This document shows positions 31,501 through 37,500 of a stretch of DNA of 64,000 nucleotides, in pieces; the first letter of the stretch is position 1; every line of letters begins with the position of its first letter. The position numbers were made by a program. The DNA lies in assembly GCF_017348835.2 (NCBI RefSeq), contig NZ_CP071375.1. One strand, written 5' to 3'. This DNA comes from Escherichia coli (lineage in GTDB: Bacteria > Pseudomonadota > Gammaproteobacteria > Enterobacterales > Enterobacteriaceae).

Positions 31501-34500
31501 CCGGGGTCGTTCCTGCCGTTCGCCAGCCGCTGGCGGAAGATAAATCATTACTGCCATTTTTCAGCAATGAGCGTGTGATTCGTGCTGCTGGTGGCGCTGG
31601 TGCACTGTCTGACTGGTTATTACGTCACGTTAAATCCTGCCAGTGGCCTCATGGTGATTATCATCACAGCGAAACTGTCATACATCGTTACGGTACCGGC
31701 GCGATGGTGTTGTGCTGGCACTGCGACAACCAGCTGCGCGACCAGACATCCGAATCACTTGAGCAACTTGCTCAACAAAACCTGTCAGCATGGATGATTG
31801 ACGTCATCCGCCACGCAATGAATGGCATACAGGAACGGGAATTATCGCTGGCTGAATTATCCTGGTGGGCAGTCTGCAATCAGGTGGTGGACGCATTACC
31901 TGAGGCAGTATCGCGTCGTTCTCTGGGATTACCGGCGGAAAAAATCCGCTCCGTATACCGTGAAAGCGACATCATACCGGGAGAACAGACCGCCACCAGC
32001 ATACTGAAGCAGCGCACAAAAAATATTGCGCTACCGCCTCACACCCACCAGCAACAGAACCCACCACAGGAAAAGACGGTGGTCAGCATTGCCGTTGATC
32101 CGGAGTCTCCGGAATCCTTCATGAAACGACCTAAACGTCGCCGCTGGGTAAATGAGAAATACACACGCTGGGTAAAGACACAGCCGTGTGCGTGTTGTGG
32201 TAAGCCAGCGGACGATCCTCATCATCTGATTGGTCATGGTCAGGGTGGAATGGGAACAAAATCCCACGATATTTTCACGCTACCGCTGTGTCGGGAGCAT
32301 CACAACGAGCTTCATGCGGATCCGCTGGCGTTCGAAGAAAAGCATGGTTCCCAGGTTGATTTAATTTTTCGTTTTCTTGATCACGCTTTTGCAACCGGCG
32401 TGCTCGGGTAAAAGAGGTTACTGATGCGTATAGAGTTTGTTTTGCCTTACCCGCCGACGGTGAACACCTACTGGCGACGTCGTGGCAGCACATATTTTGT
32501 ATCAAAAGCCGGTGAGCGTTATCGCCGGGCTGTGGCGCTTATTGTTCGCCAGCAGCGGCTGAAATTAAGCCTGTCCGGACGGCTGGCAATAAAAATTATT
32601 GCAGAACCACCGGATAAGCGCCGCCGTGACCTGGACAACATTCTGAAAGCACCGCTGGATGCGCTGACGCATGCGGAAGTGCTCATTGATGACGAGCAGT
32701 TTGATGAAATCAATATTGTGCGCGGTCAGCCTGTGCCAGGTGGACGGCTGGGCGTGAAGATTTACGAAATCAGAGGTGGTAACGATGGCGCGTGATATCC
32801 AGATGGTTCTTGAGCGATGGGGGGCATGGGCAGCAAATAATCATGAAGATGTAACATGGCCCTCGATAGCTGCTGGTTTTAAAGGATTAATCCCGACTAA
32901 AGTGAAATCACGTCCTCAGTGTTCTGATGATGACGCCATGATAATTTGTGGTTGTATGGCACGATTAAACAAGAATAATCAGTATTTGCACGATTTGTTG
33001 GTGGATTATTACGTAGGTGGAATGACATTTATGGCTCTTGCACGTAAGCATAGATGTTCTGATGGGCTTATTGGTAAAAGGCTTTATAAAGCGGAAGGTA
33101 TTATTGAAGGAATGCTTATGGCTCTGAATGTCCGGTTAGATATGGATATGCGGTAGGGATATATAGTGATGAGGGTTATGTTTTCTGTGTTTATAATTAA
33201 CATGTTTATTTTTTGATGGTCATGTATTGTGGAAGGTAGATAAAATGTTGCCTGGTGAATTGAAAATATTGATAATCAATCTTCATCATTAAATAAAAGG
33301 AGTGCTTATGTGGATTGTGTTAGTACTGTCACTGTCAACTCTCAGTTGGCATAAGGTAGTGGCTTTTTCATTGTTGACGGTGTCTGTTGTCCTGGCTGTG
33401 CTTAATGATATTATTGATTGGTCGGTGTTATTTTTTGTTGCTACAATCGTTTTTTTTATTATTTTGAAGTTCAACTGGAAATATAACGCCTGGGCTAAAT
33501 CTATATATGAAGTTGGCATAGTTTTATCAGCCATAGCATTATCTTTCCATCTATGGCCAGGGTTTCACAATCCTGTAGTGCTAAATTCTGTTACTGTTGG
33601 CCCTCAGAGTACTCCCTATACAATGTATTTTAATTTTGATAAAGCGCTGGTGCCATTTTTGTTAGTCCTGTGTACATCTTCTTTGTTTAAAAAAGAAGTA
33701 AAATCAGAAGTGTCTTTGTGGAAGTGGGGGGCTCTGTCGCTCTCTGTTCCTCTTATCCTGTTTTTGGCTGTTTTTTTTGGTGGATTAAAGCCAGAGATTC
33801 ATTTTCCTGAGTGGTTGCCAGAGTTTATATTGGCTAATTTGTTTTTTGTGTCTCTGGCAGAGGAATCATTATTTAGAGGGTATATTCAATCACGGCTATC
33901 AGAAGTAACGTCTCCATTGGTTGCATTAATTGTGGCGGCTTTGTTGTTTGGTTTTTATCACTATTCAGGTGGTGCTTTACTTGTATTATTTGCCACGTTA
34001 TCTGGTGTTGTGTATGGATTGTCATGGATGTGGAGTGGGCGTTTGTGGGTTGCCACCCTTTTCCATTTTGGTTTGAATCTGTGTCACTTGTTATTCTTTA
34101 CCTATCCATTTTTAAAACATAATTGATTTTTTCTATGGTTTTAAATTTATAAGACTGAAAAATAGCAGGACGTGACATTTGCATGAAAAATATGCACGGC
34201 AAAGCATTTACGTACGTAAAAAATCAGGTATGCTGTTAAGAGTGGTTATTTCGCCGCATAGCTTGACCCCGCCTCTGAGCGGGTTTTTTGTGCCCGCAAA
34301 GTAGCGCAGTGCGTTAAATGTGCTGGTAGTTATTAATACAGGTCTTTCAGCTTGCTGGCTTTTTCGGCAAGAGTTATTGGTGTGTCACGTTAACCGGAAA
34401 GGGTAAAAAGACATGCTGAAACAGCAGGATATGACAGAAACCGCCAGAGTTGTGTTTGATGAATTAAGCGTCACCGAACCGGCGACAGTCGGGGAGATTG

Positions 34501-37500
34501 CGCAGAATACTTACCTTTCACGCGAACGCTGCCAGTTAATACTGACCCAGCTTGTTATGGCGGGTCTGGCAGACTATCAGTGCGGTTGTTACAGACGCCT
34601 TCAGTCCTGAAGGCTTTTTTATTTGTGGTAAATGGGCGGCTGGTGGGTGTTAGCGGCACCTGTCAGTCCTTTGCTTATGTGTTGATGATAATTTACCTTT
34701 TGGGGCTATAATTGAACTAACCAATTGCTAATGAAAGTAAAATTATAATGGTTGTTGTCTGTTCAGTTATCATGGTTTGCTCCCCAATTAATATTTTTCT
34801 TGAAAAGGATACGTTGTCACTTAAGCCCGGCTCAGTCGTTCTGGCCACCAAATGCATCAGGGCGCTTTTCCTTATGCATTATGGCAAAGTTAAAATTTTC
34901 GATATAAACCATTCCATAGTAAGTCAATATCTGGAAATTCAGCATAAGCTGACAAGAACTCATCTGACTGACGTTCCGCTTTATCTGTCACTGGAACCCA
35001 ACAACCCTGCGTTGGCTGAGGCTTTAATTACCAGCCAGAGATTTTCCGGAGATACCACGGATATGTTTCTTATGATGGCATGCCTGTCGCTGTTTGAATC
35101 AGATGAACGGATATTATTATTTTTAAGTGGATGTTTATCCAGTATAAGTGCCAAAGTCAGGGCGATAATTCAGACAGATATATCAGCAAGCTGGACGCTT
35201 GGTGCGATTGCGTTACGCCTGCATATGAGTGAGAGTTTGTTAAAGATAAAACTGAAAAATGAAGGGCACATGTTCAGTCGCTTGTTGCTGGAAGAGCGGA
35301 TGCGTGTTGCTGTGAATATGTTATGTTCCCGGCATGGATATGGACAGGCTGTAGCAGAAAAATGCGGTTATTCAAGCTGGTCCTACTTTATTTCTGTATT
35401 TCACCGCTATTATGGCTTCCCGCCAGACAGATATGTATCCAGGCAAGGGCTTGATTATTGATTTTCATCTGATTATTATTTTTTGACCCGGCCCTTTAGC
35501 TCAGTGGTGAGAGCGAGCGACTCATAATCGCCAGGTCGCTGGTTCAAATCCAGCAAGGGCCACCATCACATACCGCCATTAGCTCATCAGGAAAGAGCGC
35601 CAGCTTTCGAAGCTGGTTGCGCGGAGTTCGGGTCCCCGAAGGCGGTCCATTATCTGTATCCTGCGTTGTTAGCTCAGCCGGACAGAGCAATTGCCTTCTA
35701 AGCAATCGGTCACTGGTTCGAATCCAGTACAACGCGCCACACTTATTTTCCCTGGCTCGCTTTTGCGGGCCTTTTTTTTAAATGTCTCACAATTCAGGCG
35801 GTTGACTGTTGTCTGGTTTGCGGGGAGTTTGTTAAAAGAAACTGGCATGGTGAATCCCCCTGTGCGGAGGGGCAATCAGCGAGTAGGTATATGGGATAAT
35901 CGCGGATTCAGGTGCTGGTACTGAATTCACCGGGAGGCACCCGGCACCATGCAATGGCACATAGCGCCACTCTCCAGCCCCTCTCCGGAGGGGCTTTCTT
36001 ATGGACAAAAAAAGCCCGCGCAGGGAGACGCGGGCGGCAAGGAATAAACAACAAAACGTGAAGTAATATTTCAGCTGGCGAATAATATCCGACAGTAATC
36101 ACTCTGCGCAATAGCGCGGCCTTTTTCGTATTGCGGGCTGTTGTCTCTCTTCTGCCATTGTCCTGTAACTTCCGGACTTCAGCCCGCTCCTCATTTTACT
36201 CACAATATTATCCCGGCCGGGAGGATTCATGGCATTTAAACACTATGATGTTGTCAGGGCGGCGTCGCCGTCAGACCTTGCGGAAAAGCTGACACACAAA
36301 CTGAAAGAGGGCTGGCAGCCGTTTGGTAGTCCGGTGGCCATAACCCCTTATACCCTGATGCAGGCGATTGCAGCAGAAGGTGATGTGGTGGTCAGTGGTG
36401 CAACTGAGCCGGATTGGTACTACGTCATCGTACTGGCCGGGCAGTCCAATGCAATGGCTTACGGTGAAGGGCTTCCGCTTCCGGATTCTTACGATGCTCC
36501 GGATCCGCGCATTAAACAGCTGGCGCGCCGCAGCACGGTAACTCCGGGTGGAGAGAGTTGTACGTATAACGACATCATTCCGGCTGACCACTGCCTGCAT
36601 GATGTGCAGGATATGAGTACGCTGAATCATCCGAAGGCAGACCTGAGCAAAGGGCAGTACGGCTGTGTCGGCCAGGGCTTACATATTGCCAAAAAACTGC
36701 TTCCGTATATCCCGAATAACGCGGGGATCCTGCTGGTACCATGCTGTCGTGGTGGTTCGGCATTTACCCAGGGCGCGGAGGGGACATTCAGTGCGGACAC
36801 GGGGGCCAGCCAGGATTCGGCGCGCTGGGGTGTGGGTAAACCGTTATATCAGGACCTGATTGCGCGCACCAAAGCTGCATTACAGAAGAACCCGAAAAAT
36901 GTGTTGCTGGCGGTGTGCTGGATGCAGGGAGAGTTTGACATGAGCGCCGCCACCCACGCACAGCAACCTGCGCTGTTTACAGCCATGCTGACACAGTTTC
37001 GTGCTGACCTCTCCGTGTTTAACGCGCAGTGCCATGGTGGCAGTGCTGCAGATGTGCCGTGGATTTGTGGTGACACGACGTATTACTGGAAAAATACATA
37101 CGCTACCCAGTACGACACCGTGTACGGCGGGTATAAAAACAGGGAGAGTGAGGGCGTTTATTTTGTGCCCTTCATGACAGACGGTAACGGCGTCAATACC
37201 GCCACTAACGCGCCGGCAGAAGATCCGGATATTCCGGCATCAGGATATTACGGTGCGGCATCGAGAACGAATGGAAACCAGGTATCATCAAACCGCCCGA
37301 CACATTTCAGTTCATGGGCGCGCAGGAGCATTATTCCGGATCGTCTGGCAACCGCTATTCTGAACGCAGCCGGGCGCACCTCAGCCTTCATCAGTGGTAA
37401 GGCACCGGAAATTAAACCCTCGCCCGGCGGCAACACGCCATCGGGTCCGTCTGCAGATACGTCCGTTCGCACAATCTCCCTGCTGCCGGCAGCCGGAGAG

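What the first reader, a model, noticed from the sequence alone, without database searches (positions are those of the whole stretch)
33157..35461. Low-GC CPBP-protease / small ORF / AraC-regulator cargo block in the stx slot
Between the Q antiterminator gene and the ileZ-argN-argO tRNA cluster, where Stx phages carry toxin cargo, this prophage has a visibly AT-rich three-gene insert: a polytopic membrane protein with the three CPBP/Abi signature motifs (EExxxR at LAEESLFRGY, FxxxH at FGFYHY, HFGLNL), a 65-aa ORF, and an AraC-family regulator. The composition contrasts with the flanking phage genes, so it looks like separately acquired cargo. CPBP/Abi proteins are associated with bacteriocin immunity and abortive infection but have no defined role in a lambdoid late operon. 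A membrane effector paired with its own regulator immediately downstream of Q is my best candidate here for an uncharacterised exclusion or immunity module, or for a regulator acting on host virulence or acid-resistance genes.
Basis: partly seen in the sequence, partly recalled or inferred. Interest (0 to 1): 0.65.

Follow-up and report, generated by a model that had tools for sequence, protein, structure and literature searches.

The report
Known EHEC prophage genes Z1787–psrA
This stretch is the already catalogued Z1787–Z1788–psrA region of an enterohaemorrhagic E. coli prophage: two separately acquired cargo genes (a membrane protease and the published acid-resistance/virulence regulator PsrA) on either side of a common phage backbone gene, not a new defence module.

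Summary
Window 33157-35461 carries a CPBP/Rce1-like membrane protease gene, a 65-aa ORF and an AraC-family gene, between Q and three tRNA genes.

It is not new. The stretch is 99.7% identical to O157:H7 Sakai Sp4 (ECs1084-ECs1088). The same block sits in EDL933 CP-933M.
- **AraC protein:** it is WP_000261909.1, 90.7% identical to the CP-933O copy (Z2104, PsrB). That matches the published PsrA/PsrB relationship. PsrA and PsrB switch on gadE/yhiF and so repress type III secretion.
- **CPBP gene:** it is Z1787. Both published Z1787 primers match it exactly. A 2009 deletion study tentatively linked it to blocking of STAT-1 signalling.

The "three-gene insert" is a mosaic.
- The CPBP cassette travels with this Q allele (571 and 570 of 5426 genomes). 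It also occurs without psr, directly upstream of stx1d.
- The 65-aa ORF is ordinary backbone (51% GC, 2140 genomes).
- The psrA cassette brings its own promoter-like site. It occupies the slot where Stx2 phages carry a DNA methylase.
- The real stx slot lies after the tRNAs, at 35781-35782, and is empty.

No known defence-system model matches. The biochemical role of the CPBP protease remains open.

The parts
32785..33156 (+). Antiterminator Q, of the phage-21 Q family. It is low in G+C (41.9%) and genetically linked to the CPBP cassette.
   Evidence: PHROG 79 at 1.4e-50. PDB Q21 6p18 at E=7e-8. This allele plus its downstream spacer occurs in 570 of 5426 genomes, against 571 for CPBP.
33147..34206 (+). 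CPBP cassette, defined by homology breakpoints. It holds an AT-rich upstream spacer (33157-33307, 28.5% G+C) and the CPBP gene.
   Evidence: Homology to the SCU-125 prophage stops at 33146 and resumes at 34207, and an ORF6N gene fills the gap there. The Stx2_95 phage has only about 37 unaligned bases between its Q stop and the start of homology to the window.
33308..34126 (+). CPBP / Rce1-like glutamic intramembrane endopeptidase, 272 aa. It is EDL933 Z1787, Sakai ECs1085 and WP_000265267.1.
   Evidence: PF02517 at 1.4e-19. Catalytic residues are invariant. AlphaFold pLDDT is 91.6 with 10 helices and a short beta segment; the best PDB match is the CPBP protein SpdC, 6u0o. The published Z1787 primers match at 33325-33345 and 33800-33819.
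34207..34290 (+). Conserved non-coding backbone element. It contains the 14-bp palindrome TTTACGTACGTAAA, a TATGCT -10-like hexamer, and the intrinsic-terminator-like hairpin CCCGCCTCTGAGCGGG plus a T run (34268-34283). It is a candidate late promoter/terminator, or simply the terminator of the CPBP transcript.
   Evidence: Recombination breakpoints against four other phages fall between 34207 and 34283.
34413..34610 (+). 65-aa winged-helix-like ORF (Z1788 / ECs1086, WP_000917737.1, PHROG 331). It is an ordinary lambdoid backbone gene, followed by a terminator-like hairpin at 34597-34614.
   Evidence: PHROG 331 at 6e-37. Present in 2140 of 5426 genomes at 4063 places. Found in Stx2 phages upstream of a DNA methylase. 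dN/dS is 0.14-0.23. It is frameshifted in Sakai and EDL933.
34685..35486 (+). psrA cassette, defined by homology breakpoints. It starts with its own promoter-like site, ATGATA-16-TATAAT, at 34685-34712.
   Evidence: Homology to Stx2_95 ends at 34684 and resumes at 35487, and that phage carries a DNA methylase in between. This is the best promoter-like match in the region, 10 of 12.
34748..35461 (+). AraC/XylS-family regulator PsrA, 237 aa. It is EDL933 Z1789, Sakai ECs1087 and WP_000261909.1.
   Evidence: HTH_18 at 9e-9. Best NCBIfam matches are YdeO (9e-30, full length) and GadX. Identical to Sakai ECs1087 over the 195 aa annotated there, and 90.7% identical to the CP-933O copy. The same protein accession is annotated in EDL933 CP-933M.
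35490..35739 (+). ileZ-argN-argO-type tRNA cluster, with a promoter-like site at 35451-35479 and a terminator-like hairpin at 35754-35771.

Best explanation
**What it is.** The region is the late-region cargo of an Sp4/CP-933M-type lambdoid prophage of attaching-and-effacing E. coli. It consists of two independent cargo cassettes inserted into a conserved backbone.

**Cassette 2, psrA (shown).** It encodes PsrA, a YdeO/GadX-like AraC regulator.
- Published: PsrA and PsrB raise expression of GadE and YhiF, and that in turn lowers LEE type III secretion. Direct binding to the gadE and hdeA promoters, and raised acid resistance, are reported for PsrB only.
- Inferred: psrA is transcribed from its own sigma-70-type promoter at 34685-34712, independently of Q, behind two terminator-like hairpins.

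**Cassette 1, the CPBP gene (identity shown, function inferred).** It encodes Z1787, an intramembrane glutamic endopeptidase with an intact active site.
- It sits between Q and the first strong terminator.
- Inferred: it is expressed in the lysogen from a promoter in the AT-rich spacer after Q.
- Inferred: it cleaves a still unknown envelope or exported substrate.
- It is not functionally coupled to psrA.

**Backbone.** The 65-aa ORF between the cassettes is a common backbone gene of unknown role.
For: **Identity**
- Window 32701-36300 is 99.67% identical to Sakai Sp4 ECs1084-1088.
- Closed EDL933 CP-933M has the same gene order and the same AraC protein accession, WP_000261909.1.
- O157 genomes hold exactly two psr-like copies. 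The window protein is 90.7% identical to the CP-933O copy. That matches the statement that PsrB (z2104) shares 90% identity with PsrA (z1789) (PMC10877973).
- The original EDL933 order is Z1786 Q, Z1787, Z1788, Z1789 'putative envelope protein', tRNAs, Z1793, Z1794 holin (PMC4048457 supplement).
- Both Z1787 primers match the CPBP gene exactly.

**PsrA function**
- Reviews PMC10877973 and PMC8565820.
- The nearest curated families are YdeO and GadX.
- A PerC/Pch gene lies in the same prophage at 41224-41538.

**Modularity**
- Homology breakpoints.
- Alternative contents of each slot.
- Genome counts: CPBP 571, this Q allele 570, psr 725 (1323 places), 65-aa ORF 2140.

**Separate transcription**
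- Terminator-like hairpins at 34268-34283 and 34597-34614, and a promoter-like site at 34685-34712.
- EDL933 RNA-seq values in LB: Q 5, Z1787 39, Z1788 11, Z1789 7. With antibiotics Z1787 and Z1788 rise (+2.3 and +2.1 log2) while Z1789 falls to 0.

**CPBP likely active**
- Invariant EExxxR, H and H residues.
- dN/dS of 0.25.
- Confident CPBP fold.
Against: - The primary PsrA, PsrB and PatE papers (PMC7099609, PMC4288888, PMC3416394) are not held. The functional statements rest on two reviews.
- The literature places Z1787 and Z1789 on OI-50/CP-933N. Sakai, closed EDL933 and this window all have the block in the prophage next to yccA, which is Sp4/CP-933M. The gene identity is secure, but deletion phenotypes attributed to OI-50 cannot be checked here.
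- Promoter and terminator calls are consensus matches only.
- The RNA-seq values are low, were mapped to the old assembly, and have no replicate information in what I read.
- No substrate or phenotype is established for the CPBP protein. The one published phenotype was only partly complemented. The same laboratory's 2012 follow-up does not mention it.
Confidence: 0.85

Rival explanations
1. The three genes form one acquired module in which the AraC protein regulates the CPBP membrane effector, and the module gives phage exclusion, abortive infection or bacteriocin immunity.
For: - The genes are adjacent and co-oriented.
- CPBP and AraC are both AT-rich.
- 539 of 5426 genomes carry the whole block.
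- From general knowledge, some CPBP (Abi-type) proteins of Gram-positive bacteria give bacteriocin self-immunity.
Against: - The parts assort independently.
- The middle ORF is backbone.
- Two terminator-like hairpins and a separate promoter-like site lie between CPBP and psrA.
- Expression changes go in opposite directions with antibiotics.
- No PADLOC match.
- The AraC protein already has published chromosomal targets.
Confidence: 0.04
2. The CPBP gene on its own is a lysogenic-conversion cargo gene. It protects the lysogen, either by blocking superinfection or by giving immunity to a membrane-active toxin or bacteriocin. It does so by cleaving or sequestering an incoming peptide or a receptor.
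For: - It sits in a prophage slot that holds other accessory genes, such as ORF6N in SCU-125.
- It appears to be expressed in lysogens, more strongly than Q.
- The active site is conserved and the gene is under purifying selection.
- There is family precedent in Gram-positive bacteria (own knowledge).
Against: - No defence-model match.
- Chromosomal homologues of about 50% identity are single genes with unrelated, non-toxin neighbours in Dickeya, Enterobacter and Hafnia.
- No homologue exists in 50,697 deposited phage genomes apart from two weak Listeria hits.
- No experiment is available.
Confidence: 0.12
3. The published reading (Jandu et al. 2009). [quoted passage not shown] A more plausible version is that it processes a secreted bacterial factor.
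For: - Expression rose 2.66-fold with HEp-2 cells.
- The EDL933 deltaZ1787 mutant lost STAT-1 inhibition (119% against 4.7% of control).
- There was a partial effect when the gene was expressed in HB101 (PMC2654852).
Against: - Complementation was only partial, and the gene was not induced with T84 cells.
- A polar effect on the downstream 65-aa ORF or psrA was not excluded (inference).
- The authors' idea of a released protease does not fit a polytopic membrane protein predicted with 10 helices.
- The 2012 follow-up calls the factor 'still as yet unidentified' and does not mention Z1787.
Confidence: 0.12
4. The CPBP gene is an effectively neutral passenger. It hitch-hikes with this Q allele in a successful EHEC prophage lineage and makes no contribution to phage or host.
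For: - It is nearly monomorphic: 547 of 571 copies are at least 99% identical, which suggests recent clonal spread.
- It is tightly linked to one Q allele.
- The neighbouring 65-aa ORF has decayed in O157.
Against: - The ORF is annotated as an intact CPBP gene in all 40 sampled genomes.
- dN/dS is 0.25 against the 88%-identical Stx1d-phage copy, with catalytic residues retained.
- It is transcribed.
Confidence: 0.2

Closest known systems
PsrA (Z1789) and PsrB (Z2104), the prophage-encoded secretion regulators of EHEC O157:H7
   Same: The window protein has the same RefSeq accession (WP_000261909.1) as the EDL933 CP-933M protein. It is 90.7% identical to the CP-933O (Z2104) protein. The position is the same: Q ... 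65-aa ORF, psr, tRNAs, on a prophage that also carries a Pch/PerC gene.
   Different: Nothing at the sequence level. The host strain is not O157: the best whole-region match is pig isolate PE164, followed by O103:H2-type genomes. The regulatory output in this background is untested.
PatE (Z0321, CP-933H) and the chromosomal acid-resistance regulators YdeO and GadX
   Same: They are AraC/XylS regulators of the same sub-group. YdeO is the best NCBIfam match, 9e-30 over residues 1-229, followed by GadX. The window protein is 37% identical to PatE over its full length. Per the review, all act on the gadE/hdeA acid fitness island.
   Different: The scores are far below the curated equivalog cut-offs (104 against 348 bits for YdeO), so this is a paralogue and not YdeO or GadX. 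PatE sits in a different, P2/Mu-like remnant context.
Z1787, the 'putative protease on OI-50' (Jandu et al. 2009, PMC2654852)
   Same: It is the same gene. Both published primers match exactly at 33325-33345 and 33800-33819.
   Different: That paper treated it as a possibly released protease. Here it is a polytopic intramembrane CPBP enzyme.
CPBP / Rce1-like family (PF02517): Rce1, S. aureus SpdC/LyrA, myxosortases, bacteriocin-immunity Abi proteins
   Same: It has the Pfam domain, the EExxxR / FxxxH / HxxxN motifs and the helical-bundle fold. The best PDB match is SpdC, 6u0o. There are weak domain-level hits to myxosortase models.
   Different: - It belongs to a distinct enterobacterial sub-family of about 272-276 aa. 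That sub-family has an extra invariant N-terminal motif: H81, PGFHN(84-88) and YNFDKALVPF(107-117).
- No sorting-signal partner, bacteriocin operon or CAAX substrate is evident.
- All scores are below the NCBIfam equivalog cut-offs.
The Q-to-tRNA accessory slots of Stx-converting phages (for example Stx2_95, phiP27, phiSTEC1575-Stx2k)
   Same: The backbone is the same: terminator hairpin, 65-aa ORF, variable gene, ileZ-argN-argO, then the stx position, then nanS-p.
   Different: Stx2_95 carries a DNA methylase where psrA sits and has nothing where CPBP sits, and it carries stx2AB after the tRNAs. This window has no stx.

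Membership tests
Psr family (PsrA/PsrB) of prophage AraC regulators | Sequence identity to the EDL933 proteins Z1789 and Z2104 | tested here: met
   The protein accession is the same as in EDL933 CP-933M. It is 90.7% identical to the CP-933O copy, matching the published 90% between PsrA and PsrB. 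O157 genomes have exactly two copies.
Psr family (PsrA/PsrB) of prophage AraC regulators | C-terminal AraC-type double helix-turn-helix domain | tested here: met
   HTH_18 at 9.1e-9 over residues 155-230, plus HTH_AraC.
Psr family (PsrA/PsrB) of prophage AraC regulators | Carried on a lambdoid prophage that also carries a Pch/PerC regulator | tested here: met
   A PerC-family ORF lies at 41224-41538 in the same prophage. The review states this association.
Psr family (PsrA/PsrB) of prophage AraC regulators | Activates gadE/yhiF (and hdeA) and thereby represses LEE type III secretion | not testable with these tools
   Taken from reviews PMC10877973 and PMC8565820. The primary papers are not held.
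CPBP / Rce1-like glutamic intramembrane endopeptidases (PF02517) | Significant match to the family profile | tested here: met
   PF02517 at E=1.4e-19, covering model positions 3-92 of 93.
CPBP / Rce1-like glutamic intramembrane endopeptidases (PF02517) | Catalytic motifs EExxxR, FxxxH and HxxxN/D retained | tested here: met
   E185, E186, R190, F214, H218 and H253 are invariant, and N257 is at least 90% conserved, in 30 homologues.
CPBP / Rce1-like glutamic intramembrane endopeptidases (PF02517) | Polytopic helical membrane fold of the family | tested here: met
   The AlphaFold model has pLDDT 91.6 and pTM 0.84, with 10 helices. The only confident PDB match is the CPBP protein SpdC, 6u0o (probability 1.00, TM 0.47-0.51). 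Hydropathy gives multiple membrane segments.
CPBP / Rce1-like glutamic intramembrane endopeptidases (PF02517) | Proteolytic activity on a defined substrate | not testable with these tools
   No substrate is known. No partner gene is conserved next to the homologues.
Known anti-phage defence or abortive-infection systems | Match of any of the three proteins to a defence-system model | tested here: not met
   PADLOC gives no family for CPBP or AraC. The 65-aa ORF has one marginal hit at E=0.0034.
Bacteriocin self-immunity CPBP (Abi) genes | Linkage to a bacteriocin, toxin or export operon | tested here: not met
   Neighbours here are Q and phage backbone. Chromosomal homologues have unrelated neighbours.
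Cargo of the stx slot of Stx phages | Located between the ileZ-argN-argO tRNAs and nanS-p, where stxAB is inserted | tested here: not met
   stx2AB lies after the tRNAs. The insertion point maps to window 35781-35782. The block ends at 35461, upstream of the tRNAs.

The most novel reading that the evidence does not exclude
Z1787 may be a catalytically active intramembrane protease that the prophage expresses in the lysogen, from a promoter placed between Q and the first terminator and so ahead of Q-dependent control. Its cleavage of a bacterial envelope or exported protein would then change a host-facing or competition phenotype, such as STAT-1 interference, or phage or bacteriocin sensitivity. 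That would make it the first prophage-borne CPBP protease with a defined substrate in Enterobacteria.
Probability: 0.15. Interest if true: 0.55.

Novelty: already known. Interest (0 to 1): 0.18.

Why it matters
There is little here for discovery. The block is in the two reference EHEC genomes and in about 10% of complete E. coli genomes, and its regulator is a published virulence and acid-resistance regulator.

Three practical points come out of the check:
1. **Modularity.** The CPBP gene and psrA are independent cassettes. Co-occurrence should not be read as a functional pair.
2. **The Z1787 phenotype.** The only published Z1787 phenotype comes from a deletion about 0.6 kb upstream of psrA with partial complementation. 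It needs a non-polar, catalytic-mutant re-test.
3. **Location in the literature.** Papers place Z1787 and Z1789 on OI-50/CP-933N. Closed genomes place them in CP-933M/Sp4. This bears on how whole-island deletion phenotypes are interpreted.

Tried and rejected
- **Primary papers.** I tried to read the PsrA, PsrB and PatE papers (PMC7099609, PMC4288888, PMC3416394). None is held, so I relied on two reviews.
- **Looking for psrA in CP-933N/Sp6.** The literature says it is there. Neither Sakai Sp6 nor closed EDL933 CP-933N has an AraC gene between Q and nanS-p. The gene is in Sp4/CP-933M.
- **Source names.** Source-given protein names carried no Psr label.
- **Defence and immunity hypothesis.** PADLOC gave nothing. 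Three chromosomal homologue contexts showed no conserved partner. A tblastn of CPBP against 50,697 phage records found only two weak Listeria hits.
- **Structures.** A sequence search of solved structures with CPBP found nothing. Only the fold search found SpdC.
- **Locating the late promoter pR'.**
  - I first favoured 34208-34245. That is the conserved palindrome plus TATGCT upstream of the 34268 hairpin. It is shared with prophages whose Q proteins are 48-95% identical to this one.
  - SCU-125 then turned out to have a strong TTGACC-18-TATATT site plus a terminator directly after its Q.
  - The window also has a conserved perfect TATAAT at 33193-33198.
  - Sequence alone cannot decide, so I leave this open.
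- **Other checks.** An RNA fold of the 34236-34300 leader was unremarkable (z = -0.83). No transcription-start supplement was available for the StxS paper.

Full report
**1. What is there**

On the + strand the window reads as follows:
- DUF968 gene, rusA, then Q (32785-33156).
- A 272-aa ORF (33308-34126).
- A 65-aa ORF (34413-34610).
- A 237-aa ORF (34748-35461).
- tRNA-Met(CAT; annotated ileZ), tRNA-Arg(TCG) and tRNA-Arg(TCT) at 35490-35739.
- A 616-aa SASA-family esterase (nanS-p type, 36229-38079), then holin, lysozyme and a lysis protein.
- A PerC-family gene.

The 272-aa protein hits Pfam PF02517 (Rce1-like/CPBP) at 1.4e-19. The 237-aa protein hits HTH_18 at 9e-9 and HTH_AraC. The 65-aa protein has only weak winged-helix hits.

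G+C is 38.0% for the CPBP gene, 28.5% for the spacer in front of it and 42.3% for the AraC gene. It is 51.0% for the 65-aa ORF, equal to the window mean, and Q itself is 41.9%. All three ORFs show dN/dS of 0.14-0.43 against diverged copies, so all are real coding genes.

**2. It is a catalogued locus**

Window 32701-36300 is 99.67% identical to O157:H7 Sakai prophage Sp4. There the genes are annotated as follows:
- ECs1084, phage antiterminator.
- ECs1085, phage CAAX amino terminal protease family protein.
- ECs1086.
- ECs1087, AraC-family transcriptional regulator.
- ileZ1, argN1 and argO1.

The closed EDL933 genome has the same order in CP-933M. Its AraC protein is WP_000261909.1, the same accession as in genomes that match the window at 100%.

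The whole 2.4-kb block is present at 80% coverage or more in 539 of 5426 complete E. coli genomes. These include O157:H7, O55:H7, O26, O111, O145 and O103 strains.

**3. The AraC gene is psrA**

- O157:H7 genomes contain exactly two psr-like copies.
- The window protein is 90.7% identical to the EDL933 CP-933O copy. It is 37% identical to the CP-933H AraC protein.
[quoted passage not shown] It lists Z1786 (Q antiterminator), Z1787, Z1788, Z1789 ("putative envelope protein"), a three-number gap, Z1793 and Z1794 (holin). That is the window's gene order (PMC4048457 supplement).
- The review PMC10877973 states that PsrA is z1789 and that PsrB is z2104, sharing 90% identity with PsrA. [quoted passage not shown] It also says both raise GadE and YhiF and thereby repress type III secretion.
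- The same review reports that PsrB and PatE bind hdeA (PsrB also gadE) and raise acid resistance (also PMC8565820).
- In line with this, the best curated family matches are YdeO (9e-30, full length) and GadX, both below the equivalog cut-offs.
- A PerC/Pch gene lies at 41224-41538 in the same prophage.

**4. The CPBP gene is Z1787 and has also been studied**

Jandu et al. 2009 (PMC2654852) give Z1787 primers that match the window exactly at 33325-33345 (+) and 33800-33819 (-). They reported the following:
- 2.66-fold induction with HEp-2 cells.
- Loss of STAT-1 inhibition in EDL933 deltaZ1787.
- Only partial complementation, and only a partial effect in HB101.
- No induction with T84 cells.

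Their 2012 follow-up (PMC3256229) does not mention Z1787. It concludes that the factor is still unidentified.

My inferences are these. A deletion about 0.6 kb upstream of psrA with partial complementation leaves a polar effect open. A released protease is also hard to reconcile with the predicted structure.

**5. Anatomy of the CPBP protein**

- In 30 homologues of 48-84% identity, E185, E186, R190, F214, H218 and H253 are invariant and N257 is at least 90% conserved.
- A sub-family-specific N-terminal motif is also invariant: H81, PGFHN, YNFDKALVPF.
- The AlphaFold model is confident (pLDDT 91.6, pTM 0.84). It has 10 helices and a short beta segment.
- Its only confident PDB match is the CPBP protein SpdC, 6u0o.
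- Full-length homologues of about 50% identity are widespread in Enterobacterales. In Dickeya, Enterobacter and Hafnia they are single chromosomal genes with unrelated neighbours.
- The gene is absent from 50,697 deposited phage genomes.
- No PADLOC model matches any of the three proteins convincingly.

**6. The block is a mosaic, not a unit**

Homology breakpoints define three pieces.

(a) 33147-34206, the CPBP cassette:
- The commensal SCU-125 prophage has a Q that is 81% identical and an ORF6N gene in this slot.
- Stx2_95 has about 37 unaligned bases here.
- The Stx1d prophage of RM8082 has Q, then CPBP (88% DNA identity), then stx1d directly. It has no 65-aa ORF, no AraC gene and no tRNAs.

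(b) 34207-34684, backbone:
- It contains a conserved palindrome, the terminator-like hairpin at 34268-34283, the 65-aa ORF, and a second hairpin at 34597-34614.
- The ORF occurs at 4063 places in 2140 genomes.
- It is frameshifted in Sakai and EDL933.

(c) 34685-35486, the psrA cassette:
- It begins exactly at the best promoter-like site in the region, ATGATA-16-TATAAT.
- Stx2_95 carries a DNA methylase in this slot.
- CP-933O, SCU-125 and phage phiSTEC1575-Stx2k carry psr-like genes without CPBP.

| Element | Genomes (of 5426) | Places |
|---|---|---|
| CPBP gene | 571 | 576 |
| This Q allele plus its spacer | 570 | not noted |
| psr-like gene | 725 | 1323 |
| 65-aa ORF | 2140 | 4063 |

CPBP therefore travels with Q, not with psr.

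EDL933 RNA-seq points the same way, though weakly. Values in LB are Q 5, Z1787 39, Z1788 11 and Z1789 7. With antibiotics Z1787 and Z1788 rise while Z1789 drops to 0.

**7. The stx slot**

In Stx2_95 and phiSTEC1575-Stx2k the toxin genes follow the tRNAs. Window 35487-35780 and 35783-36284 align to the sequences on either side of stx2AB in Stx2_95. The true slot is therefore at 35781-35782, and it is empty. Immediately after it lies a strong match to the sRNA family STnc100 (35816-36006; 138 bits against a gathering score of 47).

**8. Open point: where is the late promoter?**

Q belongs to the phage-21 family. Two candidates exist.
- **Region A, 33157-33307.** It has a TATAAT at 33193-33198 and is conserved with RM8082.
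- **Region B, 34208-34245.** It has the palindrome TTTACGTACGTAAA, then 16 bases, then TATGCT. The hairpin follows about 25 nt downstream.

Region B is shared by prophages with related Q proteins. It is the only spacer between Q and the 65-aa ORF in Stx2_95. Against that, SCU-125 has a strong promoter plus terminator immediately after its Q.

In either case the CPBP gene lies upstream of the first strong terminator after Q. It could therefore be transcribed without Q. Only a transcript map can settle which promoter is used.

**9. Verdict**

The finding is real but ordinary and already known. The idea of an effector paired with its own regulator as an exclusion module is not supported. What remains open is the substrate and role of the Z1787 protease.

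Noticed in passing
window 35816-36006 (+): There is a strong match to Rfam RF02076 (sRNA STnc100): 138 bits against a gathering score of 47, with its own terminator-like hairpin at 35976-35995. It lies between the tRNA cluster and nanS-p, immediately after the position where Stx phages carry stx.
   Followed up: partly
window 35781-35782: This is the true stx insertion point and it is empty. The flanks align to Stx2_95 on either side of its 1.3-kb stx2AB segment.
   Followed up: yes
window 34207-34220 and 13672-13685: The 14-bp perfect palindrome TTTACG(W)(W)CGTAAA occurs twice in the prophage, with 0 expected in 100 shuffles. One copy lies upstream of the 34268 terminator. The other lies inside the 3' end of the integrase gene. 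The SCU-125 copy keeps the palindrome through a compensating TA-to-AT change at its centre. It may be a protein-binding site. It is unexplained.
   Followed up: partly
L005 (EDL933 CP-933N), L009 (EDL933 CP-933M), L004/L006 (Sakai Sp6/Sp4): The original EDL933 annotation and the literature place Z1786-Z1789 (Q, CPBP, 65-aa ORF, psrA) in CP-933N/OI-50. In closed EDL933, in Sakai and in this window the block lies in the prophage next to yccA (CP-933M/Sp4). CP-933N/Sp6 has a different Q and no AraC gene. The central segments of the two prophages seem to be swapped in the old assembly. This could affect how OI-50 deletion phenotypes are read.
   Followed up: partly
window 41224-41538 (+): A 104-aa PerC/Pch-family regulator, with the same accession WP_001303878.1 as in EDL933 CP-933M, lies downstream of the lysis genes. 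One prophage therefore carries both a type III secretion activator (Pch) and a repressor (PsrA).
   Followed up: partly
L011 (E. coli RM8082) 2979-6333: An Stx1d prophage has Q, then CPBP (88% DNA identity), then stx1dAB directly. It lacks the 65-aa ORF, psr and the tRNAs, and the hairpin after CPBP is degenerate. CPBP and stx1d may therefore be co-transcribed there.
   Followed up: partly
L002 (phage phiSTEC1575-Stx2k) 4479-6802: An inducible Stx2k phage carries a psr-like AraC gene, 89% identical in protein, immediately upstream of the tRNAs and stx2k. Psr-type regulators are thus also mobile on toxin-converting phages.
   Followed up: no
L006 18343-18582 (Sakai ECs1086); L009 20674-20870 (EDL933): The 65-aa ORF is frameshifted in O157:H7 Sakai and EDL933, but intact in this window and in most other copies.
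   Followed up: partly
window 28087-29300 (+) and 29614-30687 (-): An IS3-family element and an IS481-family transposase gene are inserted upstream of hokD in the early-right region of the prophage. The prophage is probably defective.
   Followed up: no
L010 (E. coli SCU-125, healthy human) 3510-6287: A commensal isolate carries Q, an ORF6N gene, the 65-aa ORF, a psr-like gene and the tRNAs, with no nanS-p. The psr family is not restricted to LEE-positive pathogens.
   Followed up: no
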